64,000 nt of DNA, taken from Lysobacterales bacterium. GTDB lineage: Bacteria; Pseudomonadota; Gammaproteobacteria; Xanthomonadales; SZUA-38. The stretch lies in NCBI GenBank assembly GCA_030065125.1, contig JASJDM010000006.1, positions 1-64,000 of the forward strand, written 5' to 3'. The translations under genes were made by a program, and so were the position numbers. The notes below the pieces were generated by a model. That model worked only from the letters and a program-made list of their open reading frames with translations. It did no database searches and was not told the DNA's origin. Of this stretch, positions 7,554 through 50,843 are shown piece by piece (positions within the stretch are counted from its first letter, which is position 1; each line of letters opens with the position of its first letter).

Positions 7554-9281
7554 ATGTTTGAGCTGACCGACTCCCGGCGTCTGACCGGGCCCAACCTGTT
7601 CTCGGACGATCCGGGCGCGGTCGCTGAGGTAAATGGCCCGGCCAATACCCCGGTGGCACCGGTCGACGGAGACCCTGCCACCCTGGCCGAGCGCTGGCGT
7701 CATCACGCTTTGGCCCTCACCCAGGCCCTGGGCTGGGGCAGCCGGGTCATCAGCCGGGCATTCAGCGGCGGCGTCAGCCAGTACCTTTCGGCGCCCGTTG
7801 ACGTACTGTATGCCGCTACCGAGGTCAACGAAGCCGCCTGGGCGGCCTGCAGCGCGGAGCTGACGGGACAGCCGGCGCCGGACTTCGACCGGGCACTGGA
7901 TCGCCTGCGCGGGCTGGTCGCCGAGGAACAGAACCCGGCGCTGCTGGAACTGAAAGCGGCGGCCAGCCAGCGGCGCGCACGATTTCTCAGTGACGACGAC
8001 TTCGCCTCGGTGGGATACGGACCCGGTGCATTAACCTGGCCGGTTGACCAGCTGCCAGCGCCCGGAGATGTCGCATGGGATTCCGTCAGCAATATCCCGG
8101 TCGGCCTGGTTACCGGCACCAATGGCAAATCCACCACCGTCCGGCTGGCTGCGTCGGTACTCACGGCCGCGGGCCGGCAGACCGGGGTGACCTCCACGGA
8201 TTACATTCGGGTCGCCGACGAGATCATCGATACCGGCGATTACTCCGGTCCCGGCGGGGCCCGCACCCTTCTGCGTGACCAGCGGGTCGAGGTGGCCGTG
8301 CTGGAGGTAGCCCGGGGCGGCATGCTGCGGCGCGGCCTGGGCGTCAACCAGGCCGACGCGGCGGTGGTGACCAACGTGGCCGCGGACCACCTGGGCGAAT
8401 GGGGCATCAACAGCGTGGCCGAAATGGCCACCGCCAAGTTCATCGTCTGCCGGGCCCTGCCCCCGGGCAAACCGCTGATCCTCAATGCCGAAGACCCGGC
8501 CAGCGTGGAGCAGGCCCGACAGGCCCCGGCCAACACCAAGACCATCGTCTGGTTCAGCGAACGCGAAAACCATCCACTGGTCCAGTCCCACTGCATGAAC
8601 GGCGGACAGGCCTGGGTGGTCAGTTCCGGGATGATTACCCGGATTCACCAGGGACAGCCTGTCGCCGTAGTTCCGGTGGCGGACGTGCCCGTTACCCTGG
8701 GGGGCGCGGCGAAATACAACGTGCAGAATGCCCTGGCTGCCGCGGCCCTGTGCCATGCCCTGGGCGCCACGGACCAGGCCATTGCCCACGGTCTGGCATC
8801 GTTCAGGGGGACGCCGGAAGAGAACCCCGGCCGTGGCAACTTCTTCGAGGGCAAAGGCATTCGGGTGCTGGTGGATTTCGCCCACAATGAACACGGCCTG
8901 ACCGCCATCGCCGAGACCCTGGCCCGAATTCCCGCAAAGCGTCGCCTGGTCATGATCGGCCAGGCGGGAGATCGCACGGATGAGCTGATTGCTGACCTGG
9001 TGAAAGCCGCGCTGAAAGCCGGTCCGGATCATCTGATGGTGGTCAAACTGCCTGGATATGAACGAGGCCGCCAGCCCGAGGACGTGCCCCGCCTGATTCA
9101 CCAGTTGGCCCTTGAGGGCGGGCTGTCGGAGGCCCGGATCGAGCACGCCGAAGACCCCGTCGACGGGACCCGCAGGGCCCTGGCCTGGGCCCGGGAAGGT
9201 GACTTTCTCCTGCTGCTGGCGCTGACCCAGCGGGGCCCCTGCCTCAACCTGGTCCAGCGCGAACTCGGTCAAACCGGGTAG
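7554..9281 (+). CDS. truncated cyanophycin synthetase paralog (CphA N domain plus Mur-ligase-like domain, no ATP-grasp domain)
   Basis: 575 aa. Starts 5 nt after the cphA stop. CphA-like N domain (MFELTDSRRLTGPNLFSDDPG) joined directly to the P-loop VTGTNGKSTT. No ATP-grasp segment is detectable. Confidence 0.8.
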   Translation: MFELTDSRRLTGPNLFSDDPGAVAEVNGPANTPVAPVDGDPATLAERWRHHALALTQALGWGSRVISRAFSGGVSQYLSAPVDVLYAATEVNEAAWAACSAELTGQPAPDFDRALDRLRGLVAEEQNPALLELKAAASQRRARFLSDDDFASVGYGPGALTWPVDQLPAPGDVAWDSVSNIPVGLVTGTNGKSTTVRLAASVLTAAGRQTGVTSTDYIRVADEIIDTGDYSGPGGARTLLRDQRVEVAVLEVARGGMLRRGLGVNQADAAVVTNVAADHLGEWGINSVAEMATAKFIVCRALPPGKPLILNAEDPASVEQARQAPANTKTIVWFSERENHPLVQSHCMNGGQAWVVSSGMITRIHQGQPVAVVPVADVPVTLGGAAKYNVQNALAAAALCHALGATDQAIAHGLASFRGTPEENPGRGNFFEGKGIRVLVDFAHNEHGLTAIAETLARIPAKRRLVMIGQAGDRTDELIADLVKAALKAGPDHLMVVKLPGYERGRQPEDVPRLIHQLALEGGLSEARIEHAEDPVDGTRRALAWAREGDFLLLLALTQRGPCLNLVQRELGQTG

Positions 9282-29769: not shown

Positions 29770-30162
29770 TCAGGAGATGATTGGGGGTCTGAGCAGTGGG
29801 ATGTCGAATCCCGGCACCAGCGGTGCGCTGACTTCTGAGACCAGTACCGATGATGACACGCAGGAAAGTTCGGAGGGTGCGACCTCCAGGTAGAGCATCA
29901 CTGAACCCAGCGCCTGGCAGCCAGCCTGACAAACAGGGTTTTCACAGGAAGTATCACAGCAGTCCTTCGCGTCACCGGGGTGGTCAGCAGGCCCACCGTG
30001 ACCGGTGTGTCCGTGGTCCATTGCGCCATGACCGGCATGGTCGTGGCTGGTGGGCATCTCCACGGATTCCGGGCCCACGCCACAGGCGCACATCGCCCAC
30101 GCGGCAGCCACGGGTTGCAGCGCAAGTATCGCCGCCAGGCCAATGTAAGCCAGCCTTTTCAT
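29770..30162 (-). CDS. small secreted Cys/His-rich protein, candidate periplasmic metal-binding protein of the efflux operon
   Basis: Signal peptide MKRLAYIGLAAILALQPVAAAWA. The mature region is rich in His and Cys (HDHAGHGAMDHGHTGHGGPADHPGDAKDCCDTSCENPVCQAGCQ). First gene of the operon, 83 bp upstream of the outer-membrane factor. Confidence 0.6.
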   Translation of the reverse strand: MKRLAYIGLAAILALQPVAAAWAMCACGVGPESVEMPTSHDHAGHGAMDHGHTGHGGPADHPGDAKDCCDTSCENPVCQAGCQALGSVMLYLEVAPSELSCVSSSVLVSEVSAPLVPGFDIPLLRPPIIS

Positions 30163-30241
30163 CCGACAATATTAGTTCAGGTGCAAGTGCGCCGCAACAG
30201 ATGCCACGCAACAAAACTATAAAAAACAACGAACTACCATT

Positions 30242-30256
30242 ATGACTGAATGTCAT
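30242..30256. promoter_or_regulatory. cop/cus-box-like palindrome ATGAC-N5-GTCAT upstream of the metal-efflux operon
   Basis: Perfect inverted repeat about 80 bp upstream of the 29770..30162 gene start. It resembles CusR/CopR operator half-sites (ATGACA ... TGTCAT). Confidence 0.35.
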
Positions 30257-30427
30257 CAGTGCAGGCTTGCTCGCCTCTGCCCCAGCGTCCCCATGCGGCC
30301 GCCCTGGGGTTCTGATCTCCGTCACCGGCCAGCCGCGTGCAGACAAGCTGCTATAGTCCTGGTTCGGTCAGGGGCTGATGGCTAATTACTCAATCCATGG
30401 GCGCTGTTCTCACAATGCGATCCTCCG

Positions 30428-31024
30428 ATGCGCCTTAACAGTGTCGAGTACGCGTTAATGAACAACCCGCTGCGTGAGTTGTTGCAGCGCCGGTTCGAAG
30501 CGCGTCGCCTGCGCCGCCTGGGTGGCCCGCTGAATGGCGGACGGGTCCTGGAAATCGGCTGCGGTCGAGGAGTAGGCATCGAAATTATCCTTAATGACTT
30601 TGGAGCCGACACCGTGCATGGCTTTGACCTGGATCCCAGAATGGTTCGGCTGGCGGCTCGTCGGACGGCCCGCTGCGGCGAGCGGGTGTCCGTCTGGCTG
30701 GGAGATGCCAGCGCCATCAGCGCCGCGGACGCCAGCTACGACGCCGTTTTCGATTTCGGCATCGTTCACCATATTCCCAACTGGCGCAGAGCGGTTGCCG
30801 AGATTGGGCGAGTGCTCAAACCGGGAGGCCGGTTTTACGGCGAGGAAGTGCTGGAGCCTTTCATTGTCAATCCGCTGATTCGCAGCCTGCTCAGACATCC
30901 CCTGGCAGATCGGTTCGATCGCAACACCTTTGCGGCGGCGCTGCGGCAATCCGGACTCCGACAGATCCAGTCCGAGCAACTGGGCAGGTCTTTTGCCTGG
31001 TTCACCGCACTCAAACCCGCATGA
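30428..31024 (+). CDS. class I SAM-dependent methyltransferase
   Basis: Motif I VLEIGCGRGVG and a post-I acidic residue. 198 aa. Confidence 0.8.
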   Translation: MRLNSVEYALMNNPLRELLQRRFEARRLRRLGGPLNGGRVLEIGCGRGVGIEIILNDFGADTVHGFDLDPRMVRLAARRTARCGERVSVWLGDASAISAADASYDAVFDFGIVHHIPNWRRAVAEIGRVLKPGGRFYGEEVLEPFIVNPLIRSLLRHPLADRFDRNTFAAALRQSGLRQIQSEQLGRSFAWFTALKPA

Positions 31025-31500
31025 GCAGAGCACAGGCATTCACCCTGAGACCTGCCGCAAACCCGGACCTCCGGGTACTGTCACGGATCGCCATCGAAGC
31101 AAAAGCCAGCTGGGGCTATGACCAGGAGGAACTGCAGGGCTGGGCCGACGAACTGACCGTTACCCCGGAGTCACTCGAGGCACAGCTGACTTTCCTGGCA
31201 GAGGCCGATGGCGAGATTGCAGGCTTCTTCCAGTTGTCCGGCGACGCGGCCCAACTGGAACACTTGTGGATTCGCCCCAAGTTCATGGCGATCGGTTTGG
31301 GACGACGTCTGCTCGCCCTGGCAGCGGCGGAAGCCGCGCGGAGCGGCCAAACGAAACTCGCGATCGACTCGGACCCAAACGCCCGCGGCTTTTACACGGC
31401 CTGCGGGGCCGTCCAGGTCGGCGAGTTGCCCGCACCCACTGCCCGGATGCCCGACCGGACCCGCCCCCTGATGGAACTGGATACTTCGATTTTTAAGTGA
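31021..31500 (+). CDS. GNAT family N-acetyltransferase
   Basis: 159 aa. Acetyl-CoA-binding motif RPKFMAIGLGRRLL (Q/RxxGxG/A). Overlaps the methyltransferase stop by 4 nt. Confidence 0.8.
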   Translation: MSRAQAFTLRPAANPDLRVLSRIAIEAKASWGYDQEELQGWADELTVTPESLEAQLTFLAEADGEIAGFFQLSGDAAQLEHLWIRPKFMAIGLGRRLLALAAAEAARSGQTKLAIDSDPNARGFYTACGAVQVGELPAPTARMPDRTRPLMELDTSIFK

Positions 31501-31513
31501 GGGACTGTGAGCC

Positions 31514-32308
31514 ATGACAGACAGCAACTGCTGGGGCGACGACACGCCCTACAACTATCCCGAACTGGTGGAGGACCTGAATCGGCTGCTGAAGCTGAAA
31601 ACCCTGCCCATCGGCATGAAGCGGTTTCACAGCATCGAACAGATGGAACAGGTACCGAAAATCCGCCGCCCTGATCCACAGCAGAAGCTGACCACCGACC
31701 AGGTCGTAGGTCAGTGCCGCTGGATCGGATACACCATCGGCATCACCATGGAAAACCTGATTGGTGCCCAGTGCGGCGCGGTGGTGGGGCTGCACCCCAC
31801 CGATGAGGAATTTCTCAGCGGCCGGAATTTCGATGGCGTCTGGTACGGCACCCTGGAGGACAGCGCGGCCCACCAGCGCGCCATGGATTGCGCGTCCCAT
31901 GGTGACTATCCTGCCCTGGCCGTGTCGCCGCTGACCTCGGGGCGGCTGGACAATCCCGATATCTGTCTGATCTACGCCACCCCGGGACAGATGATCCTGC
32001 TGATCAACGGCCTGCAGTGGACCGGCTACCGCAAGCTGGAGTTCAGCTGCGTGGGCGAAAGCGCCTGTGCGGATTCCTGGGGCCGCGCACTGAAAACCGG
32101 CGAACCGTCGCTGTCCATTCCCTGTTACGCCGAGCGTAAGTTCGGCGGGGTACAGGATGACGAACTGCTGATGGCCATCCCTCCCAGCTATCTGCCAGGG
32201 GCCATCCAGGGCCTCAAATCCCTTAGCGGCAACGGACTGCGCTACCCCATTCCCAACCATGGCCTGGAGCTATCCCCAGCCGCGTCCTTTGCCCGCAGCT
32301 ACGGCTGA
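31514..32308 (+). CDS. DUF169 family protein
   Basis: 264 aa. The pattern L.L...PIG.K.......E..P..RRP ... C.W ... GA.CG matches DUF169 (COG2043) proteins. Confidence 0.55.
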   Translation: MTDSNCWGDDTPYNYPELVEDLNRLLKLKTLPIGMKRFHSIEQMEQVPKIRRPDPQQKLTTDQVVGQCRWIGYTIGITMENLIGAQCGAVVGLHPTDEEFLSGRNFDGVWYGTLEDSAAHQRAMDCASHGDYPALAVSPLTSGRLDNPDICLIYATPGQMILLINGLQWTGYRKLEFSCVGESACADSWGRALKTGEPSLSIPCYAERKFGGVQDDELLMAIPPSYLPGAIQGLKSLSGNGLRYPIPNHGLELSPAASFARSYG

Positions 32309-32314
32309 CAGCCT

Positions 32315-33484
32315 GTGGACCGCAGCCTGCGAATCCACATCGTCGGGGCGGGCATCGCTGGCCTGACAACGGCTCTGGCGCTGCGCCGGGCGGGGTTTTC
32401 GACCGTGGTATTCGAACAGTCCGCGCAACTCGGGGAAGTGGGAGCGGGATTGACCATCGGCCCCAACGCGGCCCGGGTGCTGCTGCACCTGGGCCTTGAG
32501 GACGCCCTCCAGCCATTCGTCCGGGTACCCCGGCACGTCGGTGTTCTGGACGGCATCAGCGGAAAAACACAGTCTGTCCGGGACCGGGGCCCAGCCTACC
32601 AGTCCGAGTTCGGCGCCCCCCTTTGGCACATTCACCGGGCGGACCTGATCCAGGTGCTGGCCGAGGCCCTGGCCCCGCAGCCGGCTGACCTGTCCCTTGG
32701 ACATCAGCTGGCGCAGATCGACCAGGACACGGACCGGGTCACCGTCAGCTTCAAGCACGGCGCCAGCAGCAGCTGCGACCTGCTGATCGCCTGTGACGGG
32801 CTGAAATCCGGGGTGCGGGACCAGCTGTTTCCGGGAGACCCGCCCCGCTACACCGGCTACGCTGCCTGGCGGGGCCTGGCCGAGCGCAGCCGGCTGCCCG
32901 ACCCGGCTATTTACCCGGATTTCGCCATATACACCGGGCCCAATCGCTTCTTTGCGCGTTACGCCGTGCGCCAGCGCAGCCTGGTCAATATCGTGGCGCT
33001 GGCGCAGCAGCCGGACTGGGACCAGGAAAGCTGGAGCCTGAAAGCGGACATCCAGCAGGTTAAAGACGCCTATCGGGGCTGGCACCGCGGCATCCACGAT
33101 CTGCTCGACGCAATTCCGGCAGGCCAGTGCTTCCGTTGGGCGCTGCACGTGCGGGACCCGCTGGATCAGTGGGTGTCCGGTCGGGTGGCCCTGCTGGGTG
33201 ACGCGGCCCACCCGATGACCCCCTTCCTGGGCCTCGGAGCCGCCATAGGTATCGAGGACGGCTTGATCATGGCCCGCTGCCTGTCGGACTCCGAAAGCGT
33301 GGAGGATGCCCTGGCCCGTTACCAGTCCGCCCGGATCAGCCGGGCCAACCGGGTCCAGTCCGAATCGGCCAGGCAGGGGCTGTACCTGCTCAACCGCGAC
33401 CCGAGCCAGGCCGCGGACCGATCCATGATGGGCGAGGACCCCATAGGGCTTTACGGTTACGATGCGGTCAGCGTAGCAATCTGA
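32315..33484 (+). CDS. FAD-dependent aromatic-ring monooxygenase (salicylate hydroxylase / 6-hydroxynicotinate monooxygenase-like)
   Basis: GxGxxG motif IVGAGIAGLTTALAL. DG motif (ACDGLKSGVR). GD motif (LLGDAAHPMTPFLGLGAAIGIEDG). 389 aa. Confidence 0.88.
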   Translation: MDRSLRIHIVGAGIAGLTTALALRRAGFSTVVFEQSAQLGEVGAGLTIGPNAARVLLHLGLEDALQPFVRVPRHVGVLDGISGKTQSVRDRGPAYQSEFGAPLWHIHRADLIQVLAEALAPQPADLSLGHQLAQIDQDTDRVTVSFKHGASSSCDLLIACDGLKSGVRDQLFPGDPPRYTGYAAWRGLAERSRLPDPAIYPDFAIYTGPNRFFARYAVRQRSLVNIVALAQQPDWDQESWSLKADIQQVKDAYRGWHRGIHDLLDAIPAGQCFRWALHVRDPLDQWVSGRVALLGDAAHPMTPFLGLGAAIGIEDGLIMARCLSDSESVEDALARYQSARISRANRVQSESARQGLYLLNRDPSQAADRSMMGEDPIGLYGYDAVSVAI

Positions 33485-33501
33485 TCAAGGAACACAAACC
33501 C

Positions 33502-34770
33502 ATGAATAGAGTTTTCTTTGGTTGGTGGGTGCTGCTGGGGCTGCTGCTGATCTATACCGCCAACAACGGCATCCTGCTGCACACCCTGCCGCTGTTTTAC
33601 CCGGAGCTGATCCAGGAGTTTGGCTGGAACGAAGAACAGGTGACCCGGCCGGCTTCCTATTTTTTCATTCTGGCCGCGGTGCTGACACCGATACTCGGCG
33701 CCCTGCTCGACCGCTACTCGCCTCGCATCATCATGGCGGTGGGGATCGTGGTGGTCATTGCCTGCCTGGTGTTCTACGGCCGGATCAGCAGCCTGGGCGA
33801 CCTGACCTTGGTTTACCTGATCGCCGCCGTGGGCCTGGCGGGTTGCGGTCTGGTGCCCAACATGCTGATCCTGACCCGCTGGTTCATGAAATACCGGGGC
33901 GTAGCGGTAGGCATTCTGCTGATGGGGTCCAGCCTGGGAGGCGCCATTTTCCCGCTGATTGCCCGGGAGGCCTTCGTTTCCCAGGGCTGGCGCGAGGCCA
34001 GTCAGCTGCTGACAGTGGTAGGCGGGATCATGATGGTGGCCGCCATCATCCTGCTGGTGCGAAATCGCCCCGAGGATCACGGCCTCAGCTTGGACGGTGC
34101 GGAATCCACCAGATCCGAACCGTCCCGAGCCGATGACGCCGTCACCGGTCTGACACTGGGGGACGCCCTGCGTAAGCCGGCGTTCTACGTGCTGCTGGTC
34201 GCCACCGGCGCCTTGTGGTTCTGCATTGTGGGGGTACTGCAGCACCAGTCCATCTTCCTCGGCCAGGACCTGGGCGTGGACAAGGCGTCCCTGCCGGTGA
34301 TTTTCAGCGTGTTCTTCTGGGCCGCCATGATCGGCAAGCTGATGTTTGGCGTACTGGCCGATTACTTCAGCAAGACCACCATGCTGCTGGTGTCGGTACT
34401 CAACCTGATGGCCGGCCTGCTGCTGCTGCGGGCCGCCGACGGCGACAACCCCACCAGCCTGTACCTGTTTGCCGTGGTGTACGGGGTGGGCTTCAGCGGC
34501 GCTTTCACCATGATCCAGCTGGTGATCGCCGAATACTTCGCCGGTCCCTCCTACGGCAAGATTCTCGGGGTATTTGCCATGTTCGATTCCGTCGCCGGTT
34601 CCCTGGGCATCAAGTACCTGGGGACGCTGCGAGTGGCCGACGGCAGCTACCTGCCTGCCATCAACCACATGGTGGGCCTGTGTGTGGTGGTGGCCATACT
34701 GGTTCTGGCCCTGTACCGGCTGGCGCCGAGGCCAGCAGCCCTTCCGACCACCCCCTCAGCTGACGGTTGA
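33502..34770 (+). CDS. MFS transporter
   Basis: 422 aa with 12 predicted transmembrane segments and an MFS loop motif between TM2 and TM3 (GALLDRYSPR). Confidence 0.85.
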   Translation: MNRVFFGWWVLLGLLLIYTANNGILLHTLPLFYPELIQEFGWNEEQVTRPASYFFILAAVLTPILGALLDRYSPRIIMAVGIVVVIACLVFYGRISSLGDLTLVYLIAAVGLAGCGLVPNMLILTRWFMKYRGVAVGILLMGSSLGGAIFPLIAREAFVSQGWREASQLLTVVGGIMMVAAIILLVRNRPEDHGLSLDGAESTRSEPSRADDAVTGLTLGDALRKPAFYVLLVATGALWFCIVGVLQHQSIFLGQDLGVDKASLPVIFSVFFWAAMIGKLMFGVLADYFSKTTMLLVSVLNLMAGLLLLRAADGDNPTSLYLFAVVYGVGFSGAFTMIQLVIAEYFAGPSYGKILGVFAMFDSVAGSLGIKYLGTLRVADGSYLPAINHMVGLCVVVAILVLALYRLAPRPAALPTTPSADG

Positions 34771-34775
34771 CCCTG

Positions 34776-36314
34776 TCAACGAACAGCCTGTTGACCCGCA
34801 TCCGTTGTGCATCGGTCCGCCCCGGTCAGGCGCACCAGGCTGATGTCGGCGGACACGTTCTCGGATTCCGATTCAAAACGGAAAAGCCCCTGGCTGCAGG
34901 AGGTAAAAGAAAGCTCACCCTGACCCCACACCGTCAGGTCCGGTTGCTGCGGCTGGGCAAAACGCCCCCCGCGGGTGGCGCGAATGGTGAGACTGGCGGC
35001 TTCCTGCTGGATAGGGCCCTGGGCGATGAACCAGCGTTGCTCACCGGCCTGGCCGGCACTGCCCTGGTAGGTATACCAGTACACCAGCACTTCGCCGCGA
35101 TCCTCCAGCACCTCCACGTTCAGTCCCTGGCCGTCCTGAGCCGGGTCGTACCAGGATCCATTGAGTGACGCGTCCAGACGGGTTCTGAATCCCTCGGGCG
35201 ACGCGATGGAGGGAAGGATGTTCTGCCGCAGCCCGGCACCGATGCCCGGCCCCTCATAGTCGAAATCCCCGGCCTGGGTGGTCACCACGAGATCCAGTTC
35301 CGGAAACACCAGGATGTACTGCCGCCCCCACCCGCTGGCGTAAAACATGCGGAAGGTCCGGCCCGTGGTATCCGTCATGTGGCCGGTCCACCACTGGTAG
35401 CCGTGTCCGCCGCCGCCATCTCCAAAGGTTTCCGGATCCGTCACGCCGTTGCTGTAGCTGGCGGTGGACGCTGTCACCCAGGCTTCAGGCACCAGCCGTT
35501 CACCCTGCCACAGGCCCTGATCCAGGTAGAGCTGGCCGATGCGGGCCATGTCCGGGGCGGTGAGCCACAGACCGAAGCCCAGGGGCGCGGTGCCGAATGG
35601 CCAGTCGGCGAAGCCGCCGTTGATCTGGCGGTTGCGGCCCACCGACTCCCAGTGCACCTGGCCGATACCCAGGGGCTGAAACAGCCGCTGTTGGGCAAAG
35701 TCCTGGGTGGTCATGCCGGTGAGGTTGCGGATGAACCCGCTCATCAGGGTAGAGGCACCGGTGCAGTAGGCAAACCTGCTCCCCGGCGCATCGCTCAGCG
35801 GCCAGTCCAGCATGTTGCGGAACCAGTCCGGCCCGGAATGCACCCGGGAAACCGGGTTGGCCGGATCTTCGTAGTCGGTGGACCACTCATCCCAGGCGTA
35901 GCCGTGGCGCTGCATCAGCAGGTGTTCCACGGTCAGGTCCGACTTGCCCTGGGGGCTGGCCACGGGCTGGTATTCAGGGAAGTACTCCAGGTGAGGCCGG
36001 CTGATGTCCAGCAGCCCGTCATTCACCAGCATGCCCATCAACACGGAACCGACGCTCTTGGTAACGGAAAACACCGGCAGCAGCCCACCGTCATGGCCGT
36101 TGTAGGTTTCCTGGTGAACCAGGACTCCGTGACGGACCACTGCCACTGCATCGATGTTGCCCAATTCGCCGGATCGTATGCGGTCACTCATCAGGCCCAG
36201 GGCCGCTGAATCCAGTCCCTGGGCCTCGGGCTGGGATACCGGCCAGGGTTGAGCGGGCACCGCCGTGGCAAGCCAGAGCAGCATCAGCGCGGACAGGCTT
36301 GGAATGATCTTCAT
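34776..36314 (-). CDS. secreted serine hydrolase of the beta-lactamase/transpeptidase fold with an extra C-terminal domain
   Basis: Signal peptide MKIIPSLSALMLLWLATAVPAQP. SxxK motif FSVTKSV. 512 aa. Lies 52 bp downstream of the VPS10-like gene on the same strand. Confidence 0.8.
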   Translation of the reverse strand: MKIIPSLSALMLLWLATAVPAQPWPVSQPEAQGLDSAALGLMSDRIRSGELGNIDAVAVVRHGVLVHQETYNGHDGGLLPVFSVTKSVGSVLMGMLVNDGLLDISRPHLEYFPEYQPVASPQGKSDLTVEHLLMQRHGYAWDEWSTDYEDPANPVSRVHSGPDWFRNMLDWPLSDAPGSRFAYCTGASTLMSGFIRNLTGMTTQDFAQQRLFQPLGIGQVHWESVGRNRQINGGFADWPFGTAPLGFGLWLTAPDMARIGQLYLDQGLWQGERLVPEAWVTASTASYSNGVTDPETFGDGGGGHGYQWWTGHMTDTTGRTFRMFYASGWGRQYILVFPELDLVVTTQAGDFDYEGPGIGAGLRQNILPSIASPEGFRTRLDASLNGSWYDPAQDGQGLNVEVLEDRGEVLVYWYTYQGSAGQAGEQRWFIAQGPIQQEAASLTIRATRGGRFAQPQQPDLTVWGQGELSFTSCSQGLFRFESESENVSADISLVRLTGADRCTTDAGQQAVR

Positions 36315-36366: not shown

Positions 36367-39300
36367 TCAGTTCATCTGCCAATCGGGGATGCGGCCCGGC
36401 GTCCATGGCGCGCCAATCCCCTCGAGTTCGGATTCCAGTCGTTCAAGCTCACCGGCCACGGCGCGTAACTCGCCCAGGGCAGTCTCGAATTGCCGGGCCG
36501 CGACGTCATAGGAATCCCGGTGGGTACCGGTCACCGACGACTGACTCTCCCAGTGACCGCCGATGATGTCCCCTACGCGGGCGGCAATGGACATCGGCGT
36601 TCTCTCGGAGCGGCTTGCCAGGGTCTGGTCGCCGGTCATCCGTACCTGCAGATCCTGCAGCCGGCTTCGAATGGCCAGCAGTGCCTGGACCGATTGCTCC
36701 TCCGCCGCGGGTGTCGCCGTGATGGCCTGATGCAGGTGCTCGACCCGGTCATCCAGTTCTCCCAGGGCACGGCCGGCACCGCGGACTGCCCGGCTCAGGG
36801 CCGCCGTTTTCTGCTGGAAATCCAGCACGGCCTGGCGGTCGTCGGTGATCAGAGCACCTTCGAACATGGGCTTCAGCCGGAATGACACCGGGCCGGCCAG
36901 CGGCACCAGTTCACCCTGCTCCCGCTTGGCCAGGCTGACCTGGTATTCCCCGGGAACCGCCAGCGGCCCGCGCGGTGGGGATTGCCAGGGTGAGCGGTTG
37001 CCGGAGCCGTTCAGATTGATGGGGTCCGGCGCCGGGTAACGCAGGTCCCAGGCCACCCGGTGGAATCCCTTGCCGGTGGGCCCATCCAGTCGGCGGATGA
37101 CGTTGCCGTCGGCGTCACGGACGGTGACCACGATGGCGGGCTTCTGTTCCCGGTCTTCCTGGCGCAGCGCATCCCAACTCGGATAGGGGTTGTCTTCACC
37201 GTCCTTGGCCCGGGCCTTTTCATCCTCCCGCCGGGTTTCTTTCAGCGTCTTCAGTCCCTCAGCCAGGTGGTAGGACACGACGGCGCCGTGGGGCGGGTTT
37301 TCCGCGGAATAGCGGCCGGTGCCGTAATCGCCCTTGCCGCCCCAGCCGCGCCGGTCATCGGGCACGAACAGCCAGGCGTCGCGAACGGCGAACAGGGTAG
37401 CCTCTCCAGTCACACCCGTTCTCAGGGGGCTGTAGTCGTCCAGGATGTAGACCCCGAGCCCAAAGGTGCCGATCACCAGGTCGCTTTCCCGCCGCTGGAT
37501 TTCCAGATCGCGCACGGCGATGGTTGGCAGGCCGGTCAGCTCGTGCCAGGCGCCTCCCCCGTCCGGGGAAAAGAACACGCCGAACTCGGTGCCCACGAAC
37601 AGCAGCTCAGGATTGACGTGATCCTCGGCCAGGGTATGGGCCGAGCCACGCTCCGGCAGCCCGCCCCCGATCTGCTTCCAGGAGCGACCCCGGTCCTCGG
37701 TTTTCAGCACGTAGGGCTTGAAGTCGCCCCGCTTGTGGTTGTCGATGGTGGCGTATGCCACGTCGGCGTCTTGCCGGGAGGCCACGATATCTTCGATCAG
37801 AGACATGTCCGGAACGCCCCGGAATGAGTCCACCGTGCGCCAGCTGCCGCCGCCGTCTTCGGTCACGTGAATCAATCCATCATCGGTGCCGGCGTAAATC
37901 AATCCCTCCTGCAGATTGCTTTCGTCCAATGCGATCAAGGCTCCATAAATGGAGGTCGATCGATTCTTGGAGATGGCGTCCACGCTCCAGACCCGGCCCA
38001 TCACGTCCAGCCGGTTGCGATCGATGTCCCGACTCAGATCCTCACTGACGACAGTCCAGCTCTCGCCGCGGTCGTCGGAGCGAAACAGGCGCTCTGCACC
38101 GTAGTAAAGCCGGCGGTGGTCATGGGGGGAGATGATCAGCGGCGCGTTCCAGTTCCAGTTGTAATTGAGTTCGCCCTCCGGCGGTCGCGGCGTGATGGAC
38201 AGTCGCTCGCCGGTGATGCGGTCGAAGCGAACCAGGCCGCCATACTGGTACTGGGCATACACCACGTTGGCATCCGTGGGATCGATCTGGGCCTTGAAGC
38301 CGTCGCCAAACTGGGCAATCCACCAGTCGCCGTTGGTGATGCCGTCGGTATAGCGGGTACGGGAGGGTCCGCACAGGGTGTGGTTGTCCTGGGTGCCTGC
38401 GCAAACGTTATAAAACGGCTCGTCGTTGTCAGGCGTGGCCCGGTAGAACTGGGCCACCGGGAGATTACGGACGTGGCGCCAGGTCTGGCCACGGTCCCAG
38501 GACTCGTAAACGCCGCCGTCGCTGCCGATGTAGATATGGTCGGTGTTGTCCGGATCGATCCACAGCGCGTGATCGTCCACGTGCTTGTTCTTGATGGACA
38601 AACGGCTCCAGGTTTTTCCGCCGTCCTCGGAGATCCGGGCAAAGGTGTCCATGGAATACACCCGCTCCGGGTTGTGCGGGTCCACGATCAGCTCGTTGTA
38701 GTACTGGGGGCTGGAGGCCATGTAGTCGGAGCGTTTTTCCCAGCTCTCGCCGAAATCGGTGCTGCGGTAGACACCCTGCTGCTCGGGATCGGCCTCGACA
38801 ATGGCATAGACCACGTTGGGCGCCGATGGGGCGGCCGCCAGGCCAATACGCCCCAGGTCACCCTTGGGCAGACCGCGGCTCAGCTTGCGCCAGGTAGCGC
38901 CGCCGTCGGTGGTCTTGTGGATGCCGCCACCGGGACCGCCATTGATCAGGGTCCACACGTGGCGCCGCCGCTGATAGCTGGATGCCACCATGGTGTCGGG
39001 CTGGGCCGGATGGATCAGGAATTCATTGATCCCCGTGTCCGGGTCGATGTCCAGCACCTTTTCCCAGGACTCCCCGCCGTTGCGACTGCGGTACAGGCCG
39101 CGGTCTCCGCCGGAATTCCACAGCGGGCCCTGGGCCGCTACGTACATCGTCTGGCTGTCCCGGGGGTCGAAGCGGATCATGGAAATGTGCCCTGAGTCTT
39201 TCAGTCCCATGTTGGTCCAGCTCTTACCGCCGTCCAGTGAGCGGTAAACGCCGTCTCCGTAGCCGACGCTGCGCTGGCTGTTGTTTTCCCCGGTGCCCAC

Positions 39301-39621
39301 CCAGACCACCTTGGGATTGGACGGATCCAGTTCCACCACGCCAACGGCGTAGGACCCTTCGTCGCTGAACACCGAAGTCCAGGTGATGCCATCGTTCTCG
39401 GTCTTCCACACGCCGCCGCTGGCCATGGCGACATAGTGAATCTGCCGCTGGGTGGGATGAAAGGCGAAATCGGATACCCGTCCCGAGGTGAGGGCGGGGC
39501 CAATGGCGCGCAGCGGCATCGAAGCCAGCTCATGTTGTTCCTGTGCAAGGGGCGATTTCGCTGAGCAGACCAAAAAAATGGCCAGAAGCGAGGTCAGAAT
39601 CAGACGCATGTTGAATCCCAA
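36367..39621 (-). CDS. VPS10/sortilin-like BNR (Asp-box) repeat protein, paralog 1, secreted
   Basis: 1084 aa with a signal peptide. At least 8 S/TxDxGxxW Asp-boxes (SLDGGKSWT, TDGGATWRK, STDFGESWEK, EDGGKTWSR, WDRGQTWRH, DDRGESWTV, TEDGGGSWRT, EDRGRSWKQ). Clear paralog of 47517..50843. Confidence 0.85.
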   Translation of the reverse strand: MGFNMRLILTSLLAIFLVCSAKSPLAQEQHELASMPLRAIGPALTSGRVSDFAFHPTQRQIHYVAMASGGVWKTENDGITWTSVFSDEGSYAVGVVELDPSNPKVVWVGTGENNSQRSVGYGDGVYRSLDGGKSWTNMGLKDSGHISMIRFDPRDSQTMYVAAQGPLWNSGGDRGLYRSRNGGESWEKVLDIDPDTGINEFLIHPAQPDTMVASSYQRRRHVWTLINGGPGGGIHKTTDGGATWRKLSRGLPKGDLGRIGLAAAPSAPNVVYAIVEADPEQQGVYRSTDFGESWEKRSDYMASSPQYYNELIVDPHNPERVYSMDTFARISEDGGKTWSRLSIKNKHVDDHALWIDPDNTDHIYIGSDGGVYESWDRGQTWRHVRNLPVAQFYRATPDNDEPFYNVCAGTQDNHTLCGPSRTRYTDGITNGDWWIAQFGDGFKAQIDPTDANVVYAQYQYGGLVRFDRITGERLSITPRPPEGELNYNWNWNAPLIISPHDHRRLYYGAERLFRSDDRGESWTVVSEDLSRDIDRNRLDVMGRVWSVDAISKNRSTSIYGALIALDESNLQEGLIYAGTDDGLIHVTEDGGGSWRTVDSFRGVPDMSLIEDIVASRQDADVAYATIDNHKRGDFKPYVLKTEDRGRSWKQIGGGLPERGSAHTLAEDHVNPELLFVGTEFGVFFSPDGGGAWHELTGLPTIAVRDLEIQRRESDLVIGTFGLGVYILDDYSPLRTGVTGEATLFAVRDAWLFVPDDRRGWGGKGDYGTGRYSAENPPHGAVVSYHLAEGLKTLKETRREDEKARAKDGEDNPYPSWDALRQEDREQKPAIVVTVRDADGNVIRRLDGPTGKGFHRVAWDLRYPAPDPINLNGSGNRSPWQSPPRGPLAVPGEYQVSLAKREQGELVPLAGPVSFRLKPMFEGALITDDRQAVLDFQQKTAALSRAVRGAGRALGELDDRVEHLHQAITATPAAEEQSVQALLAIRSRLQDLQVRMTGDQTLASRSERTPMSIAARVGDIIGGHWESQSSVTGTHRDSYDVAARQFETALGELRAVAGELERLESELEGIGAPWTPGRIPDWQMN

Positions 39622-47516: not shown

Positions 47517-50500
47517 CTAACTGGCGGACTGACGCAGCAGGCCGATCTCAGCCTCCGTCACCTTCTGCCGGAATTCAGCAAGCTTTCCCTGCAGGAATTC
47601 GTTGAGCTGCTGGCGGCCCTGCTGCAGCGATTTTTCCGCCCGCTCGATGTAGACGCGGGCCGCCGGGCTGGGAGCGTCGAAGCTGGACGCCACGTAAAAG
47701 TAGGCACCGCCGATCAGGTTGTTCACCTGGTCGTCGTCGTACACGATGCCCTTGGTCCTTGGCGGTGTCCGAAACACCTTTTCCAGGTCGTCCAGGGCCT
47801 TGCGGATTTCACCAGCCTCTTTCTGCAGTTCCTTCAGCGCCTCGTCGTCCCGCTGCTTGATCAGCTTGATGACGGTGTCCACGTCGTCCCGGGCATGCAG
47901 GATCGTCTCCACCGCGTCCACCGCGGTACGCCGCAAATCCCGCACGGCCAGCAGGGTGCGATAGTTCTCCAGCCGGTCCTCGGCGGAATACGGTGAACGG
48001 GGGTCCGGTAAAACCGTGACCTCGGCGCTGTCTTCCTGTTCATCAAGGCTGAGGGTCACGCGATATTGCCCCGGAGGCACCTCGGGGCCGGGTGGCAGGC
48101 CGTCATCCTGGCTGCGCCCGGGGCCGCCGGTGGGCCGGGTGCCCTGGTCCGCCCCGGGCAGGCGCCTCACGCCGTCGGCCCTCAGGGGCCAGGTAATGCG
48201 ATTGATGCCCTGGTAGACGGGGTAGCGGTACTCCCTGACCGTTTCGTCATCCAGAGTCGTGACGGTCAGCTTGACCTTGACCGGCTTGTCCGGCTTGCTG
48301 CCGTTGTCCTCGGTCTCCTCGGACTCGATTTTGGCGTCGCGGCGGGCGATTTTACGGTCCCGCTCGAGTTCCTTATCCGGGTGCGCCAGGTCCTCTCCCG
48401 AAGCCATGAAGGTAATCATGACCCCGTAAGGCTCATTGGGTGCCCGGAATTCCCCCGACCCGGTGAACCGGGTCCCGGGTGTCTGGTTGGGATCATACTG
48501 CTGACCCGGTGTGGTGCTCAGGATCCTGAGCCGCTGGTCAAAATCTTCGGCCTCCAGCCCACGCAGTGCCGAGTAATCGTCCACCACGTAAACCGACCGG
48601 CCATGGGTGCCCAGCACCAGGTCGTCCTCCCGGGCCTGGATGGCCATATCCATGACCGACACCGTGGGAACCCCCGCCCGGAACGGGGTCCACTCATCGC
48701 CGCTGTCGGTGCTGAAGAACAGGCCAAACTCGGTTCCAAGGAACAGCAGTGACGGGTCCTCATGGTCCTGCAGGACCGAGTGCGCATAACCCCTCAGGTC
48801 CGAATCATCGGACAGGTTGCGCCATCGCTGGCCATAGTTTTCAGCGCGATACACATAGGTTGCCATATTGGACCGGCGGTGGTCGTCGAAGACCACGTGG
48901 GCCACCCCGGCCTCGTGGGGACTGGGATGGATCATGGGAACCCAGGTGCCCGCAGGCACGCCGCGGACGCGGCCGTCCACCCGGTTCCAGGTCTCACCAC
49001 CGTCGCGGGTCACGTGGATGCGGCCGTCATCGGTTCCCACCCAGAGCGTACCCTGGGCCACCGGGCTGGGCGCCATGGCGACGATGGACGTGTAGTTTTC
49101 TGCCGCGGTCACGTCTGGCGTGAGCCCGCCGGATTCCCGAAAGGTCTGGAATTCCGGGTTGTTGCTGGTGAGGTCGCCGCTGATCACCGTCCAGGACTCG
49201 CCCCGGTCGGTGGACTTGTGAACGTACTGGCTGCCGTAGTACACGGTATCCGGGTCGAACGGATCAAAGGCAAAACCTGCGCTCCAGTTGAACCGCAGGT
49301 CGCTGTCTTCTTCCGGCGGCGACGGACGCACCACTCGCCATTCACCGTTGTCCAGATCCCAGCGGTAGAGATTGCCGCCCTGGGACATGGAGTAGCCGGT
49401 CCGCGAATTCCTTGGATCCGGCACCGTGTCAAAGCCGTCGCCGAATCCCACCTCGCGCCAGTGGAAGTTCAGGATACCGCTGGTCTCCCAGAGCTCGGCG
49501 GGGCCGCGCCAGGACCCGTTGTCCTGCAGCCCGCCGTAGATATTGTAGGGATGATCGTTGTCCACCGCGATGTGGTAGAACTGGGCCAGTGGCAGGTTCC
49601 TGACGAAGCGCCAGGTTTCGCCGCGGTCCCGGGAAATACCCAACCCGCCGTCATTGCCGGTGATCAGGTGCCTGGGATCCGCCGGGTTGATCCAGAACGC
49701 ATGGTTGTCGATGTGAATGGTGTTGCTCGCGGCACAGCAGTTGATCGCCGGGAAAAACCGGAATGTTCTTCCCCCGTCGATGGAGACCCGCACCCGGGTG
49801 GAGACGTTGTAGACGCGGTTGGCGTCCACCGGGTCAGCAAACAGCTCCGTGTAGTAAAAAGGCCGGTCGGAGATGTTGTAATCGGTGTTGACCGTAGACC
49901 AGCTTTCGCCGCCATCATCGGACCGGATCACGGCACTTTTTTCCGCCTCCACCAGAGCCCACACCCGGCCTTTCTGCGCCGGTGATGGCGCAAATACCAT
50001 GCGTCCCAGTTCGCCCTTGGGCAGGCCGTCCTCGGTGGTTTTCTGCTGCCAGGTCTGACCACCGTCATAACTCAGGTACATGCCTGAGCCCGCCCCGCCG
50101 GACTTGAAATGGTAGGGCCAGCGGCGGAACTGCCACATGGCAGCGTAGACCTTGTCTGGATTATGGGGATCCAGCTTGACGTCGGTGGCGCCGGTGGTGT
50201 CGTCCACGTACAGCAGGCGTTCCCAGCTGCCGCCCGCATCAACCGTTTTGTACAGCCCCCTGTCCTCGTTGGGGCCCCACAGGGTGCCCAGGGCCGCCAC
50301 GTAGGCCACGTCGGGATCACGCGGATCCAGCGCTATGCGGTCGATCCTCTCGGTGCTCTCCAGCCCCACCAGCTTCCAGCTCCGCCCACCATCGATGGAC
50401 TTGTATACGCCGCCACCGATGGAGGTGGAGTTGCGTACATTGCTCTCGCCGGTACCAACCCAGATGATGTCGGGATTGGACTGGTTGATGGCCAGCGCGC

Positions 50501-50843
50501 CAATGGAAGCCACCGGCTGATCGTCGAACACCGGGGTCCAGTTCAGTCCACCGTTGTCGGAGGTCCAGACTCCCCCGGTGGCGGTTCCCACCACCAGCCG
50601 ATTGGGATCGGCTGTGACCGCGTCGATGACCGTAACCCGTCCTGACACGCTGGCGGGGCCCACGTTGCGGGCTTTCAATCCCGCCAGCAGCTTGGAGTCC
50701 AGCGCCCCGTAGGCGGGGATGGCCGTCGCCACCAACGCGCCGAAAAGTATTGCCCCGAATTTCATCATTGATCCCCTCGCGTAAGAATTCTTATGGGTTG
50801 GTCGCAGCGCAGTGTGCGGGGCCCAGGGTGTTGGCTCTGTCAA
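47517..50843 (-). CDS. VPS10/sortilin-like BNR (Asp-box) repeat protein, paralog 2, secreted
   Basis: 1108 aa with a signal peptide and at least 9 Asp-boxes (SIDGGRSWKL, TVDAGGSWER, SYDGGQTWQQ, SDDGGESWST, SIDGGRTFRF, SRDRGETWRF, STDRGESWTV, TRDGGETWNR, STDSGDEWTP). Roughly 45-50% identical to 36367..39621 in the first 300 aa by eye. Confidence 0.85.
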   Translation of the reverse strand: MTEPTPWAPHTALRPTHKNSYARGSMMKFGAILFGALVATAIPAYGALDSKLLAGLKARNVGPASVSGRVTVIDAVTADPNRLVVGTATGGVWTSDNGGLNWTPVFDDQPVASIGALAINQSNPDIIWVGTGESNVRNSTSIGGGVYKSIDGGRSWKLVGLESTERIDRIALDPRDPDVAYVAALGTLWGPNEDRGLYKTVDAGGSWERLLYVDDTTGATDVKLDPHNPDKVYAAMWQFRRWPYHFKSGGAGSGMYLSYDGGQTWQQKTTEDGLPKGELGRMVFAPSPAQKGRVWALVEAEKSAVIRSDDGGESWSTVNTDYNISDRPFYYTELFADPVDANRVYNVSTRVRVSIDGGRTFRFFPAINCCAASNTIHIDNHAFWINPADPRHLITGNDGGLGISRDRGETWRFVRNLPLAQFYHIAVDNDHPYNIYGGLQDNGSWRGPAELWETSGILNFHWREVGFGDGFDTVPDPRNSRTGYSMSQGGNLYRWDLDNGEWRVVRPSPPEEDSDLRFNWSAGFAFDPFDPDTVYYGSQYVHKSTDRGESWTVISGDLTSNNPEFQTFRESGGLTPDVTAAENYTSIVAMAPSPVAQGTLWVGTDDGRIHVTRDGGETWNRVDGRVRGVPAGTWVPMIHPSPHEAGVAHVVFDDHRRSNMATYVYRAENYGQRWRNLSDDSDLRGYAHSVLQDHEDPSLLFLGTEFGLFFSTDSGDEWTPFRAGVPTVSVMDMAIQAREDDLVLGTHGRSVYVVDDYSALRGLEAEDFDQRLRILSTTPGQQYDPNQTPGTRFTGSGEFRAPNEPYGVMITFMASGEDLAHPDKELERDRKIARRDAKIESEETEDNGSKPDKPVKVKLTVTTLDDETVREYRYPVYQGINRITWPLRADGVRRLPGADQGTRPTGGPGRSQDDGLPPGPEVPPGQYRVTLSLDEQEDSAEVTVLPDPRSPYSAEDRLENYRTLLAVRDLRRTAVDAVETILHARDDVDTVIKLIKQRDDEALKELQKEAGEIRKALDDLEKVFRTPPRTKGIVYDDDQVNNLIGGAYFYVASSFDAPSPAARVYIERAEKSLQQGRQQLNEFLQGKLAEFRQKVTEAEIGLLRQSAS

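What the first reader, a model, noticed from the sequence alone, without database searches (positions are those of the whole stretch)
30428..34770. Compact five-gene operon: SAM methyltransferase, GNAT, DUF169, FAD monooxygenase and MFS transporter
The five genes are tightly packed (a 4-nt overlap, then gaps of 13, 6 and 17 nt). They sit on the strand opposite to the metal-efflux operon and share a 265-bp divergent promoter region with it.

The enzyme set is a methyltransferase, an acetyltransferase, an aromatic-ring hydroxylase and a protein of unknown function (DUF169), followed by an exporter or importer. This looks like a small-molecule tailoring, detoxification or catabolic cassette, for example for a hydroxylated aromatic or xenobiotic. 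No regulator is encoded inside it, and DUF169 has no established role.
Basis: partly seen in the sequence, partly recalled or inferred. Interest (0 to 1): 0.55.

Follow-up and report, generated by a model that had tools for sequence, protein, structure and literature searches.

The report
Patchwork five-gene operon around hydroxylase-transporter pair
The five tightly packed genes are real and probably one transcript, but only the flavin hydroxylase and its transporter travel together in other bacteria; the methyltransferase, acetyltransferase and DUF169 genes are local add-ons, so this is an ordinary lineage-specific operon, not a conserved pathway.

Summary
Five co-directional ORFs lie at 30428-34770, spaced -4, 13, 6 and 17 nt. 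Their Pfam identities are as stated: class I SAM methyltransferase, GNAT, DUF169, group A FAD monooxygenase and MFS.

- DUF169 orthologs (61-77% identity) in 80 genomes, plus the closest one, never have any of the other four genes within 8 kb.
- Methyltransferase orthologs (65-67%) sit in three unrelated contexts.
- The monooxygenase and MFS, in contrast, are adjacent and co-diverge in five further independent contexts. A beta-lactamase-fold serine hydrolase or a TonB-dependent receptor is often nearby.
- The methyltransferase and GNAT have atypically low GC3 (z -3.3 and -2.1).

Best reading: a conserved two-gene module that transports and hydroxylates an organic, probably aromatic or heteroaromatic, carboxylate. 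The transporter is of the monocarboxylate type. In this Xanthomonadales-like lineage, three unrelated accessory genes have been packed upstream of it.

The substrate is unknown, and no equivalog threshold is reached for any gene. Side result: a confident DUF169 model (pLDDT 92) has no match among solved structures. Overall low interest.

The parts
30163..30427 (.). Upstream non-coding region, the presumed promoter of the five-gene unit. It contains a unique 15-nt palindrome, ATGACTGAATGTCAT, at 30242-30256.
   Evidence: Sequence read. No sigma-70 consensus and no Rfam element. The palindrome occurs once in the window against 0.04 expected, but the pattern was chosen after seeing it.
30428..31024 (+). 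Class I SAM-dependent methyltransferase, 198 aa. It belongs to a widespread ~200-aa ortholog group of unknown substrate and has atypically low GC3.
   Evidence: Pfam Methyltransf_25/11/12/23. All NCBIfam hits are far below their cut-offs. Orthologs are 62-69% identical at full length and lie in unrelated contexts. GC3 is 0.69 against a window mean of 0.797, sd 0.032.
31021..31500 (+). GNAT-family N-acetyltransferase, 159 aa. Its start overlaps the methyltransferase stop (ATGA).
   Evidence: Pfam Acetyltransf_10/1/7. No NCBIfam hit. Best solved relatives are weak: 2fiw at 5e-6 and the tabtoxin-resistance protein at 4e-4. GC3 is 0.73. Junction sequence.
31514..32308 (+). DUF169 (COG2043) protein, 264 aa. 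It belongs to a very strongly conserved ortholog group with no conserved partner genes.
   Evidence: PF02596 at 134 bits. Orthologs are 61-77% identical in Gamma- and Alphaproteobacteria, Myxococcota and Acidimicrobiia. Invariant residues include C87, C126, C185, C204, H120 and H249. The AF2 model has pLDDT 92.4 and no match in the PDB.
32315..33484 (+). Group A (PHBH-fold) FAD-dependent monooxygenase, 389 aa. It falls in the 3-hydroxybenzoate 6-hydroxylase / NicC / tropone monooxygenase / decarboxylative hydroxylase clade; the substrate is unknown.
   Evidence: PF01494 over its full length. Best NCBIfam hit is 3HB 6-monooxygenase at 238 bits against a cut-off of 459. Best solved relatives are 8rqh, 5eow, 8gsm and 4bjy, at E 1e-50 to 2e-55. 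Orthologs at 52-67% identity sit next to an MFS ortholog.
33502..34770 (+). MFS transporter, 422 aa, of the monocarboxylate/oxalate-formate type. It is the conserved partner of the monooxygenase.
   Evidence: MFS_1 at 177 bits. Best NCBIfam hit is SfMCT at 107 bits against a cut-off of 320. The only solved relatives are SfMCT, MCT2 and MCT8. Orthologs at 49-77% identity are adjacent to monooxygenase orthologs in five other contexts.
34776..36314 (-). Secreted beta-lactamase-fold serine hydrolase, 512 aa, convergent with the MFS gene across a 5-nt gap.
   Evidence: PF00144 at 110 bits. Signal-peptide-like N-terminus. A 50%-identical ortholog lies divergently next to the monooxygenase in L083/L084. 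More distant beta-lactamase-fold genes follow the MFS and TonB receptor in L086 and L173. Solved relatives are Lsa45, a class C-related serine hydrolase and 6-aminohexanoate-dimer hydrolase.
29770..30162 (-). His/Cys-rich 130-aa orphan ORF with a signal-peptide-like start, at the head of the divergent CusCBA-like operon. It is of uncertain reality as a gene.
   Evidence: No Pfam or NCBIfam hit. Only 2 weak relatives among 1.84 billion representatives. Coding-like GC periodicity of 0.67/0.53/0.66.

Best explanation
The locus is a lineage-specific, probably co-transcribed operon built from parts with separate histories.

Core. The evolutionarily conserved core is the last two genes: a group A FAD-dependent hydroxylase and a monocarboxylate-type MFS carrier. 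Together they most likely move an organic, probably aromatic or heteroaromatic, carboxylate across the inner membrane and hydroxylate it with NAD(P)H and O2. Hydroxylation may be decarboxylative, as in the nearest characterised enzymes. A secreted beta-lactamase-fold serine hydrolase next door, and a TonB-dependent receptor in relatives, may release or deliver the substrate from an ester or amide outside the cell.

Add-ons. The methyltransferase-GNAT pair is compositionally foreign. The DUF169 gene is a highly conserved stand-alone gene elsewhere. Both were packed upstream of the core only in this lineage, and nothing shows that they act on the same molecule.

Shown: gene identities, spacing, the synteny pattern and the composition.
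Inferred: co-transcription, direction of transport, substrate class and the role of the hydrolase.
For: Packing. Tight spacing and an ATGA overlap, with no internal terminator or promoter consensus.

Conserved pair. The monooxygenase-MFS pair is adjacent in L082, L083/84, L085 (order swapped), L086/87, L173 and L174. Their identities track each other: monooxygenase 67/57/56/53/52/53% against MFS 77/67/49/56/56/58%. L082 even has the same 17-nt spacer. Of 80 more distant monooxygenase relatives (43% identity or less), only 2 have a related MFS nearby, and those are only 25-26% identical.

Neighbouring hydrolase. A 50%-identical ortholog sits beside the pair in L083, in a different orientation.

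Add-on genes.
- DUF169: 0 of 80 loci (about 40 with a full 8 kb on both sides) have any of the other four genes. The closest homolog (77% identity) lies among cytochrome b561, YceI and 3-hydroxyacyl-CoA dehydrogenase genes.
- Methyltransferase orthologs lie in three unrelated contexts.
- GC3 is 0.69 for the methyltransferase and 0.73 for the GNAT, against 0.83 for the monooxygenase and MFS and a window mean of 0.797, sd 0.032.

Transporter type. The only solved relatives of the MFS are monocarboxylate transporters. Its best NCBIfam hits are carriers of lactate, phosphoglycerate, galactonate, bile salts and oxalate/formate, not drug-efflux families.
Against: - Co-transcription is not demonstrated.
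- The tight packing itself, including a 6-nt DUF169-monooxygenase junction, could reflect selection for co-expression and hence a shared function in this organism.
- The contexts of the monooxygenase-MFS pair contain no recognisable ring-cleavage dioxygenase or pathway regulator, so 'catabolic entry step' is an inference.
- One monooxygenase ortholog (51% identity, L175/176) stands alone without the MFS.
- L086, L173 and L174 share an extended context and count as one lineage, so the pair is seen in about five independent contexts, not many.
Confidence: 0.6

Rival explanations
1. One reading: all five products work on one small molecule. For example, the molecule is imported or exported by the MFS, hydroxylated by the monooxygenase, then O-methylated and/or N-acetylated, with DUF169 as an extra enzyme. 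That would make a dedicated tailoring, detoxification or catabolic cassette.
For: Four consecutive junctions of 17 nt or less, including an ATGA overlap. No internal terminators. The chemistry is plausible: hydroxylase plus methyltransferase pairs exist, for example PhzS/PhzM (from general knowledge), and PhzS is among the solved relatives at E 6e-37. The array is kept intact in a second metagenome (L001).
Against: The combination has no evolutionary conservation at all: 0 of 80 DUF169 loci, 0 of 10 monooxygenase-ortholog loci and 0 of 5 methyltransferase loci. The methyltransferase and GNAT are compositionally distinct from the monooxygenase and MFS. L001 is the same species (99-100% identity), so it is not independent support. 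None of the five reaches any equivalog threshold that would tie them to a common pathway.
Confidence: 0.2
2. A metal(loid)-linked unit co-regulated with the divergent CusCBA-like pump. One version is an ars-like set (ArsM-like methyltransferase, ArsN-like acetyltransferase, ArsO-like monooxygenase, ArsK/ArsJ-like MFS). Another is an organometal-handling set with a Cys-rich DUF169.
For: The unit is divergent from a CusC/CusB/CusA-like operon. Weak NCBIfam hits of the methyltransferase to ArsM-type models (E 1e-12 to 3e-10) and of the MFS to ArsK (E 2.5e-8). DUF169 has four invariant cysteines. DUF169 is drawn next to MerR and a UbiE-type methyltransferase near HgcA-like genes of Nitrospina in bioRxiv 10.1101/648329. 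The shared upstream region holds a palindrome.
Against: Scores are far below the cut-offs: arsenite methyltransferase 40 against 263 bits, ArsK 33 against 400 bits. The GNAT hits no NCBIfam model at all. The methyltransferase is 198 aa and has only two cysteines, one of them in SAM motif I. The monooxygenase is group A, whereas ArsO is recalled as a class B flavin monooxygenase (from memory). DUF169 orthologs show no metal-gene neighbourhood in 80 genomes; their neighbours are enoyl-CoA hydratase, acyl-CoA dehydrogenase, CoA-transferase and nitroreductase genes.
Confidence: 0.05
3. The genes are adjacent but not one functional operon. The monooxygenase and MFS genes keep their own promoter inside or at the end of the DUF169 gene. 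The upstream three genes are independently expressed 'passengers' that happen to be packed closely in a compact genome.
For: Short gaps are common in this window: 11 of 27 other same-strand pairs are 17 nt apart or less. The parts have different histories and composition. The monooxygenase has no clear Shine-Dalgarno sequence and a GTG start 6 nt after the DUF169 stop.
Against: No promoter-like or terminator-like signals were found inside the cluster, although the scan covers only sigma-70 consensus sites. Gaps of 6-17 nt leave no room for intergenic promoters. The ATGA overlap suggests translational coupling of the methyltransferase and GNAT genes.
Confidence: 0.15

Closest known systems
Single-component group A flavoprotein hydroxylases of the 3-hydroxybenzoate 6-hydroxylase / 6-hydroxynicotinate 3-monooxygenase (NicC) / tropone 2-monooxygenase / 4-hydroxybenzoate 1-hydroxylase / salicylate hydroxylase clade
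   Same: Full-length PF01494 match. The GxGxxG (GAGIAG), DG (CDGLKS) and GD (LLGDAAHPM) motifs are present. E-values to 8rqh, 5eow, 8gsm and 4bjy are 1e-50 to 2e-55.
   Different: Below every equivalog cut-off: 3HB6H 238 against 459 bits, salicylate 1-monooxygenase 181 against 446, HpxO 198 against 500. At the position where NicC 5eow has His and its variant 8uiq has Gln (GAGIHIGPN), this protein has Thr (GAGLTIGPN). It forms its own ortholog group at 50-67% identity. The substrate is unknown.
Aromatic-acid 'transporter + hydroxylase' gene pairs such as mhbT-mhbM (3-hydroxybenzoate) or pcaK-pobA (4-hydroxybenzoate) (from general knowledge)
   Same: An MFS carrier gene is adjacent to and co-inherited with a group A hydroxylase gene.
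   Different: The MFS is of the monocarboxylate/oxalate-formate type, not the aromatic acid:H+ symporter family (TIGR00895 52 against 418 bits; PcaK 31 against 770 bits). No ring-cleavage dioxygenase or pathway regulator was recognised in any context examined.
SfMCT / SLC16 monocarboxylate transporters
   Same: These are the only solved relatives: 6g9x at E 3e-11, then MCT2 and MCT8. SfMCT is also the best NCBIfam model.
   Different: 107 bits against a cut-off of 320, so it is not an equivalog. Substrate and direction of transport were not determined.
Pfam DUF169 (PF02596, COG2043)
   Same: Clear member, at 134 bits against a cut-off of 27.
   Different: It belongs to an unusually conserved bacterial subgroup, 61-77% identical across phyla. 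There is still no function. A confident model has no solved structural neighbour.
ars-type accessory genes (ArsM, ArsN, ArsO, ArsK) next to metal-resistance operons
   Same: The same four broad protein classes, located next to a metal efflux pump.
   Different: No model threshold is approached. Family-level features are absent, as set out in the membership rows.

Membership tests
Operon (co-transcribed unit) | Same strand, short or overlapping junctions, no internal terminator | tested here: met
   Gaps are -4, 13, 6 and 17 nt. Only weak in-ORF terminator-like hairpins were found (7 against 3.8 expected).
Operon (co-transcribed unit) | A single transcript spanning all five genes | not testable with these tools
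   Needs RNA-seq or RT-PCR. The organism is known only from metagenomes.
Conserved gene cluster / functional cassette of all five genes | The same genes are neighbours in independent lineages | tested here: not met
   0 of 80 DUF169 loci, 0 of 10 monooxygenase-ortholog loci and 0 of 5 methyltransferase loci, and the closest DUF169 homolog. The only copy elsewhere is the same species (L001).
Conserved monooxygenase-MFS gene pair | Adjacent orthologs in independent contexts, with correlated divergence | tested here: met
   L082, L083/84, L085, L086/87, L173 and L174 have the pair; it is absent in L175/176.
Group A FAD-dependent monooxygenase (PF01494) | Full-length domain match plus the GxGxxG, DG and GD fingerprints | tested here: met
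   98 bits, profile positions 4-346 of 349. GAGIAG, CDGLKS and LLGDAAHPM are present in the translation.
3-hydroxybenzoate 6-monooxygenase (NF006021) / salicylate 1-monooxygenase (TIGR03219) / HpxO (NF033623) | Score at or above the curated equivalog cut-off | tested here: not met
   238 against 459, 181 against 446 and 198 against 500 bits.
6-hydroxynicotinate 3-monooxygenase (NicC) | Active-site His in the GAGIHIGPN segment (recalled from the literature as His47; 8uiq differs from 5eow at exactly this residue) | tested here: not met
   The query has Thr there (GAGLTIGPN).
MFS (PF07690) | Domain match across both six-helix halves | tested here: met
   177 bits, residues 17-369.
L-lactate transporter SfMCT (NF049980) / aromatic acid:H+ symporter (TIGR00895) | Score at or above the curated cut-off | tested here: not met
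   107 against 320 and 52 against 418 bits.
Class I SAM-dependent methyltransferase | Rossmann-fold methyltransferase domain with motif I (ExGxGxG) | tested here: met
   Methyltransf_25 at 76 bits. LEIGCGRG at residues 41-48.
Arsenite methyltransferase ArsM | Score at or above the cut-off, and the conserved As(III)-binding cysteines (recalled from the literature) | tested here: not met
   40 against 263 bits. The protein has only two Cys, one of them inside motif I.
GNAT acetyltransferase | GNAT domain match with the acetyl-CoA-binding R/Q-x-x-G-x-G/A segment | tested here: met
   Acetyltransf_10 at 45 bits. The segment ...FMAIGLGRRL... is present. No specific NCBIfam family matches.
DUF169 (PF02596) | Domain match at or above the gathering score | tested here: met
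   134.5 against 27 bits, profile positions 2-207 of 209.
Integron gene cassettes (considered for the methyltransferase and GNAT) | attC recombination sites flanking each ORF | tested here: not met
   Junctions of -4 and 13 nt leave no room for attC in the window. A crude scan for R''/R' core pairs found none in the window, L168, L169 or L172, but that scan is insensitive.

The most novel reading that the evidence does not exclude
In this lineage the stand-alone, four-cysteine DUF169 protein has been functionally recruited to the hydroxylase-transporter module. It might, for example, process the hydroxylase's substrate or product, or supply or repair a cofactor. Its predicted fold has no solved counterpart. 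If so, this operon would give the first experimentally tractable functional handle on DUF169.
Probability: 0.08. Interest if true: 0.5.

Novelty: new member of a known kind. Interest (0 to 1): 0.2.

Why it matters
It matters little as a system. It is one more uncharacterised accessory operon made of very common enzyme families in an uncultured gammaproteobacterium.

Three pieces are useful.
- Operon-like packing here does not mean a shared pathway. Annotation pipelines that infer DUF169 function from this neighbourhood would be misled.
- The monooxygenase plus monocarboxylate-type MFS pair, often with a secreted serine hydrolase or a TonB receptor, is a recurrent uncharacterised module in environmental Proteobacteria. 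It is a defined target for substrate discovery.
- The DUF169 subgroup is strikingly conserved and has a confidently predicted fold with no solved counterpart. It is worth a structural or biochemical look in its own right.

Tried and rejected
- Arsenic or metalloid (ArsM/ArsN/ArsO/ArsK) reading: rejected on NCBIfam scores and sequence features.
- Integron-cassette origin of the methyltransferase. Two methyltransferase-ortholog loci (L169-171, L172) are runs of small same-strand ORFs, one beside transposases and a BrnT/BrnA pair. No attC-like sites or repeated intergenic elements were found. Left as a passing note.
- Riboswitch or leader RNA upstream: no Rfam hit at E of 1 or less.
- Gentisate-type pathway. 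The 331-347-aa gene directly upstream of the monooxygenase in L086, L173 and L174 gave only a sub-threshold Cupin_2 hit (23.8 against 27.2 bits), and no NCBIfam or PDB match. It has no homolog in the window. A ring-cleavage partner is therefore not established.
- Metagenome scan with the monooxygenase alignment. The back-translated patterns were too generic and returned only relatives of 43% identity or less. These served only as a negative control for MFS linkage.
- The first AF2 run on DUF169, with 19 sequences, was unusable (pLDDT 44.8). It was rerun with 120 sequences.
- The afdb50 fold library was unavailable.
- Homology between the large secreted proteins next to the hydrolase (window 36367-39621 against the 964-aa protein of L083): none.
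The GNAT near the methyltransferase ortholog in L169 is only generically similar (29% over 77 aa).

Full report
**What is in the sequence**

Five + strand ORFs occupy 30428-34770.
- 30428-31024, 198 aa
- 31021-31500, 159 aa
- 31514-32308, 264 aa
- 32315-33484, 389 aa, GTG start
- 33502-34770, 422 aa

The junctions are an ATGA overlap, then 13, 6 and 17 nt. Pfam confirms a class I SAM methyltransferase, a GNAT, DUF169, a FAD_binding_3 (group A) monooxygenase and an MFS_1 transporter, all with strong E-values. Full-length alignment to homologs supports the 198-aa methyltransferase start and the GTG start of the monooxygenase.

No Rfam family, sigma-70 consensus or convincing terminator lies in or just upstream of the cluster. 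Short gaps are common in this window: 11 of 27 other same-strand pairs are 17 nt apart or less. Four in a row is therefore only mildly unusual, but it does look like an operon.

**Surroundings**

Upstream, on the opposite strand, lie CusC-, CusB- and CusA-like genes. They are headed by a 130-aa His/Cys-rich ORF (29770-30162) that is essentially an orphan. It has two weak relatives among 1.84 billion representatives, and the gene caller of the twin contig did not call it. The '265-bp shared promoter region' is therefore conditional on that ORF. Without it, the gap to the CusC-like gene is 741 bp.

Downstream, convergent across only 5 nt, is a secreted 512-aa beta-lactamase-fold serine hydrolase, followed by a 1084-aa Sortilin/BNR protein. 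The wider window is ordinary chromosome: an Nqr operon, ApbE, proline dehydrogenase, LemA and others. No regulator is nearby. The organism is an uncultured Xanthomonadales-like MAG.

*DUF169.* This protein belongs to a remarkably conserved ortholog group. It is 70-77% identical in many Gamma- and Alphaproteobacteria and Myxococcota, and 61-67% identical in Pseudomonadales-type MAGs and Acidimicrobiia.
- In 80 genome loci carrying such an ortholog (about 40 with a full 8 kb on both sides), tblastn with the other four proteins found nothing.
- The neighbours vary: enoyl-CoA hydratase in 15 loci, acyl-CoA dehydrogenases, a family III CoA-transferase, and a nitroreductase immediately downstream in one clade.
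- The closest homolog (77% identity, Halieaceae) lies among cytochrome b561, YceI and 3-hydroxyacyl-CoA dehydrogenase genes.

*Methyltransferase.* It also has many 62-69% identical orthologs of about 200 aa. Three of them were looked up and lie in three unrelated contexts, with no ortholog of the GNAT, DUF169, monooxygenase or MFS gene nearby.

*Monooxygenase and MFS.* The pattern is the opposite. Monooxygenase orthologs at 52-67% identity are next to an ortholog of this MFS (49-77% identity) in L082, L083/84, L085 (order swapped), L086/87, L173 and L174. The exception is L175/176.
- The identities of the two genes track each other, and L082 keeps the same 17-nt spacer.
- Of 80 more distant monooxygenase relatives (43% identity or less), only 2 have even a 25-26%-identical MFS nearby. 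The pairing is therefore specific to this ortholog group.
- A 50%-identical ortholog of the neighbouring serine hydrolase sits divergently beside the pair in L083.
- In L086, L173 and L174 the pair is followed by a TonB-dependent receptor, and in L086 and L173 also by a beta-lactamase-fold gene.

*The full array.* The complete five-gene array was found only in L001, a 99-100% identical contig of the same species.

**Composition**

GC3 of the 32 window genes of 200 aa or more averages 0.797 (sd 0.032). The methyltransferase is at 0.69 and the GNAT at 0.73, against 0.78 for DUF169 and 0.83 for the monooxygenase and MFS. This fits a later, foreign origin for the first two genes.

**What the parts are likely to do**

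*Monooxygenase.* It has the three fingerprints of PHBH-fold single-component hydroxylases. Its nearest solved relatives, at E 1e-50 to 2e-55, are tropone 2-monooxygenase, 6-hydroxynicotinate 3-monooxygenase, 4-hydroxybenzoate 1-hydroxylase and 3-hydroxybenzoate 6-hydroxylase. It reaches no equivalog cut-off. It carries Thr where NicC has the His that was mutated in entry 8uiq. It is a distinct subfamily with an unknown, probably carboxylated aromatic or heteroaromatic, substrate.

*MFS.* It resembles monocarboxylate and oxalate/formate-type carriers, not drug-efflux families. This favours a substrate carrier for an organic acid. The direction of transport is not determined.

*Other three genes.* The methyltransferase, GNAT and DUF169 protein cannot be assigned a substrate.

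**Conclusion**

I take the locus to be a lineage-specific operon. A conserved carboxylate-carrier and hydroxylase module, possibly fed by the adjacent secreted hydrolase, has had three unrelated accessory genes packed in front of it. The unified-cassette reading remains possible for this one organism, because tight packing can reflect selection for co-expression. It has no comparative support.

An arsenic- or metal-linked reading was tested and rejected on model scores and sequence features. An integron-cassette origin for the methyltransferase was considered because of the look of two ortholog loci. No attC-like sites were found.

**Side result on DUF169**

Four cysteines and two histidines are invariant across the 120 orthologs. 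The literature held here mentions DUF169 only in gene-neighbourhood tables and in a fitness table of transposon-interrupted genes.

**Verdict**

The locus is an ordinary, unconserved arrangement of common families. Its one conserved and mildly interesting element is the hydroxylase-transporter pair.

Noticed in passing
[not shown]
   Followed up: partly
window 30242-30256: A perfect 15-nt palindrome, ATGACTGAATGTCAT, lies in the region between the Cus-like operon and the five-gene unit. It occurs once in the window against 0.04 expected, but the pattern was chosen after seeing it. From memory, it resembles the half-sites of CusR/CopR-type boxes with one base less in the spacer. It could be the operator of the metal-efflux operon.
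   Followed up: partly
window 29770-30162 (-): A 130-aa His/Cys-rich ORF with a signal-peptide-like start heads the CusCBA-like operon. It is nearly an orphan (2 weak relatives in 1.84 billion representatives) and has low GC3 (0.66). It may be a novel periplasmic metal-binding protein or not a gene at all.
   Followed up: partly
L169 1-10603 and L172 5001-10600: Orthologs of the methyltransferase (65-67% identity) sit in long runs of small, unrelated, same-strand ORFs. In L172 the run lies beside IS110/IS481 transposases and a BrnT/BrnA toxin-antitoxin pair. This looks like a cassette array or other hypervariable region, but a crude attC search found nothing.
   Followed up: partly
L086 4985-5980, L173 5985-6980, L174 5885-6928: A conserved 331-347-aa protein has no Pfam, NCBIfam or PDB match apart from a sub-threshold Cupin_2 hit. 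It lies directly upstream of the monooxygenase-MFS-TonB receptor block in three related genomes. An SNF-family transporter and a 221-aa unknown protein lie further upstream.
   Followed up: partly
window 36367-39621 (-) and 47517-50843 (-): Two large (1084 and 1108 aa) Sortilin/Vps10-BNR repeat proteins with signal-peptide-like starts lie within 11 kb of each other. They look like paralogous secreted or outer-surface proteins of unknown role.
   Followed up: no
L061, L066, L068, L074-L076 (around position 8001-8800 in most): In one Pseudomonadales-type clade the DUF169 ortholog is followed by a nitroreductase-family gene (within 8-13 nt in three of the six loci) and often preceded by an alpha/beta-hydrolase and an enoyl-CoA hydratase. 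This is the only recurrent tight partnership seen for this DUF169 group.
   Followed up: partly
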